64,000 bases of DNA from Patescibacteria group bacterium (lineage in GTDB: Bacteria; Patescibacteriota; Minisyncoccia; Phycocordibacterales; CSBR16-119), in the NCBI GenBank assembly GCA_052033715.1, contig JBPOJJ010000002.1, positions 94,408-158,407 on the forward strand, in the 5' to 3' direction. This document shows, piece after piece, positions 59,553-59,996 of the stretch (position 1 is its first letter; the number at the start of each line of letters is the position of its first letter). Both the position numbers and the translations under genes were made by a program. Under the pieces are notes generated by a model. The model was not told the origin of the DNA and ran no database searches. It saw nothing but the letters and a program-made list of their open reading frames with translations.

Positions 59553-59732
59553 GTCCTCTGTCACCATATTCCTTGGAAGGAGGTCTAGATCGGCTTCGAA
59601 AATAGAAATCAATTCTCCGTCTTGTACCCTACCACCTGGTTCCTTGGAAGGAGGTCTAGATCGGCAGGCAAAGAGTATTATTAGCTAAATGAGGTACCCT
59701 ACCACCTGGTTCCTTGGAAGGAGGTCTAGATC
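59553..59732. CRISPR. Mini CRISPR array: 3 repeats (39 nt; first copy degenerate) / 2 spacers (32 and 31 nt)
   Basis: Repeats at 59553-59591 (31/39 match), 59624-59662 and 59694-59732 (identical: GTACCCTACCACCTGGTTCCTTGGAAGGAGGTCTAGATC). Spacers CGGCTTCGAAAATAGAAATCAATTCTCCGTCTT and GGCAGGCAAAGAGTATTATTAGCTAAATGAG. Immediately downstream of the cas1 fragment. Confidence 0.7.
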
Positions 59733-59996
59733 CAGAGCTTCCTCCAAAAGGGGTGGTTTTCAACGACTAACCCGAAGGTCAATCGGCTTCATCTCACCGC
59801 GTATTTCAGCGTCTATTGCGGCCCGGGTACGGGGCATAGGCTAACTCCCATTGAGCGCCCTGCTTGTATATTTTTTGAGAAAAATACCTTTTTCCGCCAG
59901 AAAAGCGGGGTAGTTTTCTCACCTGTGTCGAGGAACTTAATTACCCATACTATACAGGAATGTAGCTTTTTGTCAATTTGACGGATATAGTATACT

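What the first reader, a model, noticed from the sequence alone, without database searches (positions are those of the whole stretch)
59553..59996. Array polarity and putative leader / guide-RNA region between array and nuclease gene
The cas1-proximal repeat is the degenerate one. This implies the leader is on the far side (59733-59996), which is AT-rich in its distal half and carries a TTGTCA...TACTAT promoter-like pair just before the nuclease gene. The sequence right after the last repeat (CAGAGCTTCCTCCAAAAGGGGTGG) is partly complementary to the repeat core CCTTGGAAGGAGG. It could be an anti-repeat/tracr-like element or a terminator hairpin. No room exists 3' of the nuclease gene for a TnpB-style omega-RNA because a terminator follows immediately.
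Basis: inference. Interest (0 to 1): 0.6.

Follow-up and report, generated by a model that had tools for sequence, protein, structure and literature searches.

The report
Leader-embedded tracrRNA-like scaffold of mini CRISPR
The stretch between the small CRISPR array and the miniature TnpB/Cas12f-like gene most likely encodes, on the opposite strand, a promoter plus a conserved ~190-nt structured guide-scaffold RNA that base-pairs with the end of each repeat and reads straight into the array; this is a rare, apparently undescribed variant of a known kind of system from candidate-phyla (Patescibacteria) bacteria.

Summary
There are three 39-nt repeats, and the cas1-proximal one is degenerate (7 mismatches, all in its left 16 nt). 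The far flank is AT-rich distally.

In 24 promoter-scaffold-array units from 30+ related Patescibacteria loci, the non-degenerate end of every array abuts the same ~170-190-nt element (window 59748-59930, minus strand; covariance model built without the window: 82 bits, E 2e-17).

The element has four covarying helices (90.8% paired vs 72.7% shuffled). A minus-strand TTGACA-N16-TATAGT promoter precedes it, and a terminator-like hairpin follows the degenerate repeat.

It carries a two-part anti-repeat:
- GUACCC pairs with the last six repeat bases, GGGUAC, and swaps A-U for G-C in five loci.
- ACCACC pairs with GGUGGU.

This is the guide-pseudoknot-stem layout of TnpB omega-RNA and Cas12f sgRNA. 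So the array is read on the minus strand, probably as one transcript with the scaffold.

The effector is a zinc-finger-less TnpB/Cas12f-fold protein paired with a mini-Cas1. No RNA data exist and no protospacers were found.

The parts
59971..59976 (-). -35 box TTGACA of the scaffold/array promoter
   Evidence: 11/12 match together with the -10 box. A TTGAC[AT] box at the same relative place is present in all 23 units.
59949..59954 (-). -10 box TATAGT. The inferred transcription start is about 59941-59943.
   Evidence: The -10 box ends 27 nt before stem 1. The start site is inferred, not measured.
59748..59930 (-). Conserved structured scaffold RNA (tracrRNA/omega-RNA-like)
   Evidence: Covariance model R1 was built from 11 other loci. 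It scores 82.3 bits, E 2e-17 here. Covariation is shown.
59876..59921 (-). Stem 1: long hairpin UGAGAA...UUCUCA with an inner stem-loop
   Evidence: (helices 1 and 2 of that call; 91.7% and 77.2% paired) and the MFE fold.
59834..59863 (-). Stem 2: GCA...UGC closing pairs with a covarying inner helix
   Evidence: (helices 3 and 4 of that call; all 5 inner pairs show changes on both sides).
59825..59830 (-). Distal anti-repeat GUACCC. It pairs with the last 6 nt (GGGUAC) of each repeat, next to the spacer, in the pseudoknot-equivalent position.
   Evidence: 100% paired, AU:12 and GC:3. The same A-U to G-C swap occurs in L001, L008, L021, L023 and L027.
59794..59824 (-). Stem 3 region. A hairpin is visible in most loci but is poorly aligned.
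   Evidence: Read by eye. It was not formally tested.
59786..59793 (-). Conserved single-stranded motif GAUGAAGC
   Evidence: Nearly invariant columns.
59761..59786 (-). Stem 4 hairpin
   Evidence: (helix 5 of that call): 95.1% paired, 5 of 6 pairs with changes on both sides.
59752..59757 (-). Proximal anti-repeat ACCACC (within GAAAACCACC). It pairs with GGUGGU of the repeat.
   Evidence: 95.6% paired. All one-sided changes are C-to-U on the scaffold, giving G-U pairs. One search adds the per-unit table.
59733..59751 (-). Window-specific linker CCUUUUGGAGGAAGCUCUG.
   Evidence: Most relatives have only 6-10 nt here. The fold-back is seen.
59694..59732 (-). Repeat 3: leader-proximal, and first in the transcript
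59663..59693 (-). Spacer 2, the newest under this polarity
   Evidence: No target was found.
59624..59662 (-). Repeat 2
59592..59623 (-). Spacer 1
   Evidence: No target was found.
59553..59591 (-). Terminal degenerate repeat. In RNA sense its 3' tail reads GGUGACAGAGGAC, so both anti-repeat-binding segments are lost.
   Evidence: Terminal repeats are tail-less in the same way in L001, L010, L023, L029 and L030.
59499..59524 (-). Terminator-like hairpin AACCGCC-UUCG-GGCGGUU followed by UUCUGCAU, inside the 3' end of cas1
   Evidence: Read. It fails the strict scans. Strict hairpin-plus-U terminators sit at the same place in 19 of 24 units. L002 has the near-identical AACCGC...GCGGTT.
59978..60006 (+). 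Divergent promoter TTGACG-N17-TAGTAT for the nuclease gene. Its -35 box is back-to-back with the minus-strand -35 box (TTGTCAATTTGAC).
   Evidence: The same TTGTCAAATTGAC arrangement occurs in L006, L010 and L011.
60045..61415 (+). Effector gene: a TnpB/Cas12f-fold protein without a zinc finger. The likely true start is ATG 60045; the longest ORF starts at 59997.
58803..59531 (+). Mini-cas1 (242 aa), C-terminal catalytic domain only

Best explanation
On the minus strand, region 59733-59976 is the leader of the mini CRISPR array. It also encodes a tracrRNA-like (omega-RNA-derived) scaffold.

Proposed transcription unit:
- A sigma-70-type promoter (-35 at 59976-59971, -10 at 59954-59949) starts transcription near 59942.
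- The first ~190 nt fold into four helices.
- The RNA then runs without a terminator through a 19-nt linker into repeat 3, spacer 2, repeat 2, spacer 1 and the degenerate repeat 1.
- It stops at a terminator-like hairpin inside the 3' end of cas1.

Proposed pairing. Two single-stranded scaffold segments pair with the 3' 13 nt of each repeat (GGUGGU-A-GGGUAC), directly 5' of the spacer. GUACCC pairs with GGGUAC, and ACCACC pairs with GGUGGU. This recreates the guide-pseudoknot-stem core that TnpB and Cas12f proteins bind. The leader-proximal repeat-spacer can pair in cis as a natural single guide. The other repeat-spacers would pair in trans.

Other elements. The miniature effector (60045-61415) is expressed from a back-to-back divergent promoter and is the presumed partner. 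New spacers would enter at the scaffold-proximal repeat.

Shown here: conservation, covariation, complementarity, promoter and terminator motifs, and array polarity.

Inferred: transcription itself, co-transcription with the array, RNA processing, protein binding, and target cleavage or binding.
For: 1. Association. Every array found next to a homologue of the nuclease ends, at its non-degenerate side, in the same element. This holds in 24 units in about 20 loci, including a sister clade.

2. RNA structure. RNAalifold and a covariance-model alignment give 31 pairs with 90.8% of cells paired, against 72.7% in shuffles (0/500) and 35-51% when partners are slid. The covariation score is 0.507 against 0.172.

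3. Independent detection. The window copy was not used to build the model, yet it scores 82.3 bits, E 2e-17.

4. Strand.
- G-U pairs outnumber A-C by 53 to 12 in paired cells.
- A TTGAC[AT]-N16-18-TAnnnT promoter lies 13-43 nt upstream in all 23 units. In the window it is the best promoter match of the region.
- Hairpin-plus-U terminators follow the degenerate repeat in 19 of 24 units.
- The minus strand folds better than its shuffles (z = -1.44), whereas the plus strand does not (z = 0.06).

5. Anti-repeat.
- RNAalifold itself pairs GUACCC with the last 6 repeat bases and ACCACC with GGUGGU.
- 97.8% of those cells pair, against 29-50% when slid.
- The A-U pair becomes G-C in L001, L008, L021, L023 and L027.
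- It becomes a G-U pair in sister locus L032.
- Scaffold-side C-to-U changes keep pairing as G-U.

6. Thermodynamics. Cofolding the window scaffold with repeat 2 + spacer 1 in trans reproduces both helices: -76.8 kcal/mol against -68.1 for the separate molecules.

7. Polarity.
- Variant or degenerate repeats lie at the end away from the scaffold (L006, L027, window).
- Terminal repeats lack exactly the anti-repeat-binding tail.

8. Effector fold. The AF2 model has pLDDT 81.9. Its best structural matches are AsCas12f (E 9.5e-14) and TnpB. Both proteins use this guide-pseudoknot-stem RNA layout (PMC10097598).
Against: - No transcript data are available, so the start site, co-transcription and processing are all inferred.
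- Anti-repeat covariation rests on one variable position, because the other 11 pairs are almost invariant.
- Most repeats carry their own ACCACC-like segment that could pair with GGUGGU in cis. The role of the scaffold's ACCACC is therefore ambiguous.
- In the free scaffold, GUACCC can be sequestered in a small CCCG/CGGG hairpin.
- For repeat 3 + spacer 2, the cofold MFE chose a different structure.
- The window's own terminator fails the strict scans.
- The covariance-model alignment is fitted to the structure, which inflates the paired fraction and the G-U count somewhat.
- No protospacer was found, so polarity could not be confirmed through a PAM.
Confidence: 0.75

Rival explanations
1. Cis-only single guide. 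The scaffold works only when covalently joined to the first repeat-spacer, like a TnpB omega-RNA whose guide happens to be the newest spacer. Downstream repeat-spacers would use their own internal hairpin, or would not be used.
For: - The scaffold and array share one promoter and no terminator lies between them.
- Most repeats contain their own ACCACC-like segment able to pair with GGUGGU.
- Arrays are very short, 1-7 spacers. L003 and one L012 unit have a single spacer.
Against: - All full repeats keep the GGGUAC tail perfectly, which only the scaffold can pair with.
- Terminal repeats lose that tail.
- Trans cofolding reproduces both helices.
- Arrays of 5-7 intact units exist (L001, L006, L020, L021).
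Confidence: 0.13
2. Plain DNA leader. The conserved flank would be recognised as DNA by the mini-Cas1 or host factors for spacer integration. The GTACCC and GGTGG motifs would be protein-binding copies of repeat ends, not RNA pairing partners.
For: - The element always sits at the acquisition end of the array.
- An inverted copy of a repeat end in a leader could covary with the repeat if one protein reads both.
Against: - Four helices show compensatory changes on both sides, with 114 such cells against 36.6 in shuffles. A DNA-binding site does not predict this.
- Changes on the scaffold side of ACCACC are all C-to-U. These keep RNA G-U pairs but break DNA identity.
- G-U exceeds A-C by 53 to 12.
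- A promoter is conserved upstream of the element.

The two roles are not exclusive. The scaffold-proximal bases may also guide integration.
Confidence: 0.06
3. The sequence just after repeat 3 (CAGAGCTTCCTCCAAAAGGGGTGG) pairs with the repeat core. It would be either a short anti-repeat or an intrinsic terminator ending a plus-strand array transcript.
For: - The fold-back hairpin exists on both strands.
- GGGGTGGTTTTC provides a short U-run on the plus strand.
Against: - The hairpin is no more stable than shuffles (z = 0.06 and -0.73).
- The CTTCCTCC segment is a window-specific insertion that most relatives lack.
- The conserved part, GGTGGTTTTC, pairs with the opposite end of the repeat.
- Promoter, terminator and G-U evidence all place the transcript on the minus strand.
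Confidence: 0.04
4. An unrelated small RNA or 5' leader that merely neighbours the array.
For: No Rfam family matches the region, so its identity is not fixed by any database.
Against: - It is strictly co-located with arrays of this repeat family in 24 units, in different genomic contexts and orientations.
- It is complementary to the repeat tail and covaries with it.
Confidence: 0.02

Closest known systems
Cas12f (Cas14, type V-F) tracrRNA:crRNA / sgRNA
   Same: - The effector is miniature, and its predicted fold matches AsCas12f, OsCas12f and SpCas12f best (Foldseek E 1e-13 to 1e-11, TM 0.5-0.6).
- A PADLOC 'CAS-V-F effector' model matches at 108.6 bits.
- The long structured tracr-type RNA lies between the effector gene and the array.
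- The repeat tail pairs with two separate tracr segments. The one next to the guide forms the pseudoknot (R:AR-1) and the other forms a stem (R:AR-2), as described in PMC10097598.
   Different: - By sequence the protein is nearer to ISDra2 TnpB (profile E 2e-12) than to any Cas12f chain.
- It has no CxxC zinc finger at all, whereas Cas12f has ZF and TNB zinc fingers (PMC10606334 text).
- The scaffold shares the array's promoter and strand, so the first guide is a natural single guide.
- The adaptation module is a mini-Cas1 alone.
- There is no sequence or Rfam similarity of the RNA.
TnpB omega-RNA / reRNA (IS200/IS605, e.g. ISDra2)
   Same: - It is one continuous RNA: scaffold, then guide.
- The bases just 5' of the guide pair with a distant internal segment to form the pseudoknot, and a neighbouring stem follows (PMC10097598).
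- The protein is TnpB-sized, about 400-456 aa.
- The nearest solved relative by sequence is TnpB.
   Different: - The element is not at the 3' end of the nuclease gene or at a transposon end.
- It lies upstream and divergent in the window, and downstream and convergent in other loci.
- It is followed by a repeat-spacer array with diverse 30-33-nt spacers and by a Cas1 gene.
- No TnpA or transposon ends were seen.
NanoCas-type compact tracrRNAs (bioRxiv 10.1101/2025.01.29.635576)
   Same: [quoted passage not shown] The 3' half of this scaffold has the same logic: GUACCC, stem 3, stem 4, ACCACC.
   Different: - Here that module spans about 80 nt rather than about 50 nt.
- It is preceded by two further conserved helices.
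- Whether the proteins are related could not be tested, because no NanoCas sequence was available.
V-U* candidate subtypes and TranC (transposon-CRISPR intermediate) clades
   Same: - Both are small TnpB-like proteins repeatedly captured by CRISPR arrays and/or Cas1.
- Some have altered RuvC sites or lost zinc fingers (PMC10691335).
- The tracrRNA is thought to arise by splitting of the omega-RNA (bioRxiv 10.64898/2026.03.27.714800).
   Different: - I could not map this family to any numbered clade, because the supplementary tables are not held.
- PMC10691335 reports that arrays are almost always downstream of cas12. Here, units occur on either or both sides.
scoutRNA of Cas12c/Cas12d (CPR CasY)
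   Same: It is a CPR host with a Cas1-only adaptation module, and a short non-coding RNA with only a few bases of complementarity to the repeat. This comparison is from memory and was not tested here.
   Different: - Those effectors are over 1000 aa.
- scoutRNA is short.
- Their repeats and spacers are much shorter.

Membership tests
tracrRNA (type V, dual-guide systems) | Encoded next to the cas gene or array of its own system | tested here: met
   It is adjacent to the array in 24 of 24 units.
tracrRNA (type V, dual-guide systems) | Anti-repeat complementary to the CRISPR repeat | tested here: met
   The anti-repeat is two-part, 6 + 6 bp, with 97.8% of cells paired. One position covaries. 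Trans cofolding supports the pairing.
tracrRNA (type V, dual-guide systems) | Expressed as a separate small RNA that acts in trans and is needed for crRNA maturation or effector loading | not testable with these tools
   No RNA-seq data exist. Promoter and terminator motifs suggest one transcript shared with the array.
TnpB omega-RNA / reRNA | Overlaps the 3' end of tnpB and the transposon right end, on the gene's strand | tested here: not met
   In the window it is upstream of the gene and on the opposite strand. No copy lies 3' of the gene.
TnpB omega-RNA / reRNA | Guide directly follows the scaffold; the bases next to the guide form a pseudoknot with an internal segment | tested here: met
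   GGGUAC, the last 6 nt before each spacer, pairs with the internal GUACCC. The layout matches the one described in PMC10097598.
CRISPR leader | Flanks the end of the array where repeats are newest and intact; the degenerate repeat lies at the far end | tested here: met
   Seen in the window and in L001, L006, L010, L023, L027, L029 and L030.
CRISPR leader | Carries the promoter that drives the array | tested here: met
   This rests on motif evidence only: TTGACA-N16-TATAGT with 11/12 matches, conserved in 23 units.
Cas12f / type V-F effector | Cas12f-like fold and profile match | tested here: inconclusive
   - The top Foldseek hits are Cas12f, but TM is only 0.5-0.6 and identity 10-14%.
- The PADLOC V-F model scores 108.6 bits.
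- The NCBIfam guided_TnpB model scores 64.7 bits, below its cutoff of 100.
- The PDB profile search finds TnpB, not Cas12f.
Cas12f / type V-F effector | Zinc-finger (ZF and TNB) modules | tested here: not met
   - The window protein and its 7 nearest relatives contain no CxxC motif.
- The segment between RuvC-II and RuvC-III is instead the motif RLGLAxSxxGTxxQHxGxQNTGY.
Cas12f / type V-F effector | Complete RuvC D-E-D triad | tested here: met
   - The window protein has D260, E350 and D408, assigned by motif position.
- In the wider family E350 is K in 50 of 60 sequences.
- The spatial arrangement of the three residues was not checked.
Rfam RNA families | Match to a curated covariance model | tested here: not met
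   Only a tRNA is found in 55000-64000 at E <= 1.

The most novel reading that the evidence does not exclude
This may be an undescribed type V lineage of candidate-phyla bacteria in which the tracrRNA never fully separated from the array. The omega-RNA-derived scaffold would itself be the CRISPR leader. Each newly acquired spacer would then be inserted directly behind it and expressed as a ready-made single guide, while older spacers use the same scaffold in trans.

The lineage would also combine three further features:
- an effector without a zinc finger, which in most members has lost the RuvC glutamate (E to K) and may act by binding only;
- a Cas1 reduced to its catalytic domain, working without Cas2;
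- a living intermediate between TnpB/omega-RNA and dual-RNA Cas12 systems.
Probability: 0.3. Interest if true: 0.7.

Novelty: new variant of a known kind. Interest (0 to 1): 0.55.

Why it matters
If the reading is right, the locus documents a natural state between TnpB omega-RNA and split tracrRNA/crRNA guides. One promoter would make scaffold and array as a single RNA, and the scaffold would double as the acquisition leader. That bears on how type V systems arose from transposon nucleases.

It also gives a ready design for a guide RNA: about 190 nt of scaffold plus a 13-nt repeat tail. The partner is a 400-456-aa effector with no zinc finger. Such a system would be of practical interest as a compact genome-targeting tool.

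The family further offers a natural series of RuvC-intact members (the window's clade) and RuvC-mutated members that use the same RNA.

The scale is modest. Tracr-dependent miniature Cas12 systems are well known, and large surveys (V-U*, TranC, NanoCas screens) may already contain this clade without having described its RNA.

Tried and rejected
- Rfam search of 55000-64000 at E <= 1 found only a tRNA.
- Protospacer hunts, which would have tested polarity through a PAM, all failed:
  - 22-nt seeds of both window spacers and of three spacers from L001, L006 and L020 against viral contigs gave 0 hits.
  - 60 concatenated spacers against the INPHARED phages collection gave no match.
  - Both window spacers against the window with up to 3 mismatches matched only themselves.
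  - All spacers against all held loci matched only array copies.
- The scaffold core motif was searched in viral contigs with 0 hits, so there is no sign that the system is phage-borne.
It is uninformative on its own.
- MAFFT alignments misplace stem 3 and the long linkers of the window clade, so stem 3 was left untested.
- I tried to assign the protein to a numbered V-U or TranC clade. The PNAS 2023 supplements are not held, the TranC paper is not in the library, and the Cas14-homology survey has no CPR entries.
- I looked for host-sequence duplications around relatives, like the fpg duplication in the window. None was found.
- One look-up (P0042) returned no DNA.
- I considered a Cas1-made 92-bp target duplication or a Campbell-type insertion to explain the fpg duplication. 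Neither could be tested.
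Full report
**1. What is at the coordinates**

The window holds a compact module on the + strand.
- A 242-aa Cas1 gene lies at 58803-59531.
- Three 39-nt repeats lie at 59553-59591, 59624-59662 and 59694-59732, separated by spacers of 32 and 31 nt.
- A 264-nt gap follows.
- An ORF at 59997-61415 encodes a TnpB-family protein.

The cas1-proximal repeat differs from the other two at 7 positions, all in its first 16 nt. The gap is GC-rich next to the array (56%) and AT-rich next to the gene (36%).

**2. The system is a real, conserved CRISPR-Cas family**

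The nuclease has 59 homologues at 28-61% identity, all about 390-460 aa. A scan of 1.84 billion cluster representatives finds only 23 at E < 1e-100 and 58 at E <= 1e-30, so the family is rare.

Loci recovered from genomes and metagenomes are Patescibacteria/CPR: Saccharibacteria, Parcubacteria and Taylorbacteria MAGs. Most of them encode the nuclease, then a 235-244-aa Cas1, then an array. The arrays have 39-nt repeats beginning GT[AG]CCCNNCCACC and 30-33-nt spacers. Many loci have a second array on the other side of the nuclease, either direct or inverted.

**3. The flank of the array is a conserved element**

I oriented every array so that its repeat starts GTACCC, which is the + strand in the window, and printed what follows the last repeat. 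The same element appeared each time. It reads: GGTGGTTTTC, hairpin, GCTTCATC, hairpin, GCGGCCCGGGTACGGGGCATAG, hairpin, CTGCTGTT..TTGAGAA, hairpin, TTCTCAAATC, and about 40 nt later TTGTCAA.
- An nhmmer profile finds exactly one copy in the window, at 59752-59923 on the minus strand.
- A covariance model built from 11 other loci also finds one copy, at 59748-59930, with 82.3 bits and E 2e-17.
- Further copies turned up in every newly fetched locus that reached an array end.
- A sister-clade locus between uvrC and uvrA also has one.
- Rfam has no match.

**4. It is a structured RNA read on the minus strand**

Read as the reverse complement, RNAalifold predicts a long hairpin (stem 1), a second helix (stem 2) and a third hairpin (stem 4). 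Many changes on both sides preserve these pairs.

On the model-based alignment of 19 distinct sequences, the figures are as follows:
- 90.8% of 578 cells pair, against 72.7 ± 1.2% after shuffling (0/500) and 35-51% when partners are slid by 1-3 columns.
- 114 cells carry a change on both sides, against 36.6 in shuffles.
- The covariation score is 0.507 against 0.172.

A caveat applies here. That alignment is fitted to the structure, and the sequences are related, so these numbers lean in favour of the structure.

Four observations fix the strand.
- Within the paired cells, G-U pairs outnumber A-C by 53 to 12.
- All 23 units examined have TTGAC[AT]-N16-18-TAnnnT ending 13-43 nt upstream of stem 1 on this strand. 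In the window this is TTGACA (59976-59971), N16, TATAGT (59954-59949), with 11 of 12 matches. It is the best promoter-like site in 59400-61700.
- In 19 of 24 units a strict hairpin-plus-U-tract lies on this strand just after the last, degenerate repeat. The window has a weaker counterpart, AACCGCC-UUCG-GGCGGUU followed by UUCUGCAU (reverse complement of 59499-59524). It fails the strict scans but is near-identical to the one in L002.
- The window sequence folds better than its shuffles on the minus strand (z = -1.44) and not on the plus strand (z = 0.06).

**5. The anti-repeat**

In minus sense the repeat is GAUCUAGACCUCCUUCCAAGGAACCAGGUGGUAGGGUAC, and the spacer follows it. RNAalifold, without prompting, paired scaffold GUACCC (window 59830-59825) with the last six repeat bases, GGGUAC. 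It also paired scaffold ACCACC (59757-59752) with GGUGGU.

Counting only these 12 pairs, 97.8% of cells pair, against 29-50% when slid. The GUACCC helix is 100% paired. Its third pair is A-U in 12 sequences and G-C in 3. With the later loci, the swap (GUGCCC with GGGCAC) is seen in L001, L008, L021, L023 and L027. In sister locus L032, GUGCCC faces GGGCAU, which gives a G-U pair.

In the ACCACC helix every one-sided change is C-to-U on the scaffold. This keeps a G-U pair in RNA but would be a mismatch on the other strand.

Cofolding the window scaffold with repeat 2 + spacer 1 as a separate molecule reproduces both helices, at -76.8 kcal/mol against -68.1 for the two molecules apart. For repeat 3 + spacer 2 the minimum-energy structure is a different one.

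The terminal repeat has lost exactly these tail segments. It reads GGUGACAGAGGAC in the window, and the tail is absent altogether in L023, L029 and L030. That is expected if the tail is the handle for the spacer that follows it.

This is the arrangement described for ISDra2 TnpB omega-RNA and the Cas12f sgRNA (PMC10097598). There, the bases next to the guide pair with a distant internal segment to form a pseudoknot (R:AR-1). A neighbouring stem (R:AR-2) follows, and the guide-PK-stem core is said to be conserved in all Cas12 guide RNAs.

**6.

The sequence CAGAGCTTCCTCCAAAAGG (59733-59751) is a linker between ACCACC and the first repeat. Most relatives have only 6-10 nt there. Only the window and its closest relative L022 have long linkers.

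The linker can pair with the 5' half of repeat 3, but that hairpin is not unusually stable and is not conserved. The next bases, GGGGTGGTTTTC, are the conserved proximal anti-repeat. Their partner is the GTACCCTACCACC end of the repeat, not the CCTTGGAAGGAGG core.

**7. Polarity and the leader**

Repeats nearest the scaffold are identical to each other. Variant and degenerate repeats lie at the far end, as seen in L006, L027 and the window. The promoter, scaffold, array and terminator form one apparent transcription unit. No terminator lies between scaffold and array, so the first repeat-spacer can pair with the scaffold in cis and later ones in trans. Processing is unknown.

**8. The nuclease gene**

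On the + strand, TTGACG-N17-TAGTAT (59978-60006) lies back-to-back with the minus-strand -35 box, as TTGTCAATTTGAC. The same arrangement recurs in L006, L010 and L011. This site overlaps the ATG at 59997, and homologues start at the equivalent of Met17. The true start is therefore probably 60045.

The protein's properties are:
- AF2 model with pLDDT 81.9 and pTM 0.73.
- Best structural matches are AsCas12f (E 9.5e-14) and then TnpB.
- A profile search of the PDB finds ISDra2 TnpB (2e-12) and no Cas12f.
- A PADLOC V-F effector model matches at 108.6 bits.
- No CxxC motif is present.
- The most conserved motif, RLGLAxSxxGTxxQHxGxQNTGY, sits where the zinc finger and lid would be, and is modelled with low confidence.
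- The window protein has D260, E350 and D408. Across 60 sequences D260 is invariant, position 350 is K in 50, and position 408 is D in 38.

**9. What remains inferred**

There is no transcript evidence. The anti-repeat covariation rests on one variable position. Most repeats also contain an ACCACC-like segment that could compete with the scaffold's. No protospacer was found in any search, so neither the PAM nor the targets are known.

I could not establish whether the protein clade is among the catalogued V-U* or TranC groups. A preprint on ultracompact nucleases describes tracrRNAs with two stem-loops and two repeat-complementary single strands. That is the same logic in a smaller form.

**10. 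Verdict**

The finding is real and more interesting than a leader annotation. The gap encodes a conserved, covarying, tracrRNA/omega-RNA-like scaffold with a two-part anti-repeat. It is read away from the nuclease gene and into the array. It belongs to a rare Patescibacteria type V-like system, and I classify it as a new variant of a known kind.

Noticed in passing
window 58679-58770 and 61474-61565: A direct duplication of about 92 nt (89% identical) covers the 5' end of fpg/mutM on the minus strand: its first 24 codons plus a TATAAT box. The left copy heads the intact gene (57815-58750). The right copy is an orphan fragment next to the native upstream region. The two copies bracket exactly the cas1-array-scaffold-nuclease-terminator module, as if the 2.7-kb module had been inserted with a long target duplication or by a single crossover.
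   Followed up: partly
window 58803-59531; L023 1534-2268; L029 5368-6075; L030 1460-2176: The Cas1 of this family is only 235-244 aa. It matches just the C-terminal catalytic domain of Cas1 profiles (positions about 100-316 of 327) and lacks the N-terminal domain. No cas2 or cas4 gene is present in any of the loci.
   Followed up: partly
window 60045-61415 (residues 260, 350, 408) and homologues P0001-P0059: The RuvC-I aspartate is invariant. The RuvC-II glutamate is kept only in the window's small clade (8 of 60 sequences) and is lysine in 50 of 60. The RuvC-III position is D in 38, N in 15 and E in 4. Most of the family may therefore be nuclease-dead, yet still keeps arrays and Cas1.
   Followed up: partly
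window 61104-61169 (residues 354-375 of the protein): The protein has no zinc finger. The most conserved motif of the family, RLGLAxSxxGTxxQHxGxQNTGY, follows the RuvC-II strand, and AlphaFold models it with pLDDT below 50.
   Followed up: no
L023, L030, L027, L032: Relatives of the module sit inside housekeeping gene clusters. Two lie just upstream of rpsN/rpsH-rplF-rplR-rpsE, one lies between fusA and rpsG-rpsL, and one lies between uvrC and uvrA. The window copy lies between fpg and a TrmB-like regulator, near ruvA.
   Followed up: no
L006 5622-5848 / 8498-8724; L029 3585-3847 / 6227-6489; L001, L013, L014, L020, L021: The whole promoter-scaffold-array-terminator unit is often present twice, flanking nuclease-cas1. 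The copies are direct repeats in L006, L010 and L029 (263 nt, 100% identical) and inverted repeats in L001, L013, L014, L020 and L021. In L027 two convergent arrays share spacers. The window's gene order (cas1-array-scaffold-nuclease) is a circular permutation of the usual nuclease-cas1-array-scaffold order.
   Followed up: partly
window 59997 vs 60045: The longest ORF of the nuclease starts at 59997. Homologue N-termini and the + strand promoter at 59978-60006 point to ATG 60045 as the real start.
   Followed up: yes
window 58803-61415: GC content is uneven within the module. cas1 is 37.7%, the nuclease gene is 52.1% and the window average is 43.7%.
   Followed up: no
window 56960-57032 (minus strand): A tRNA gene (Rfam 67.8 bits) lies about 0.8 kb beyond the 3' end of fpg, close to the inserted module.
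   Followed up: no
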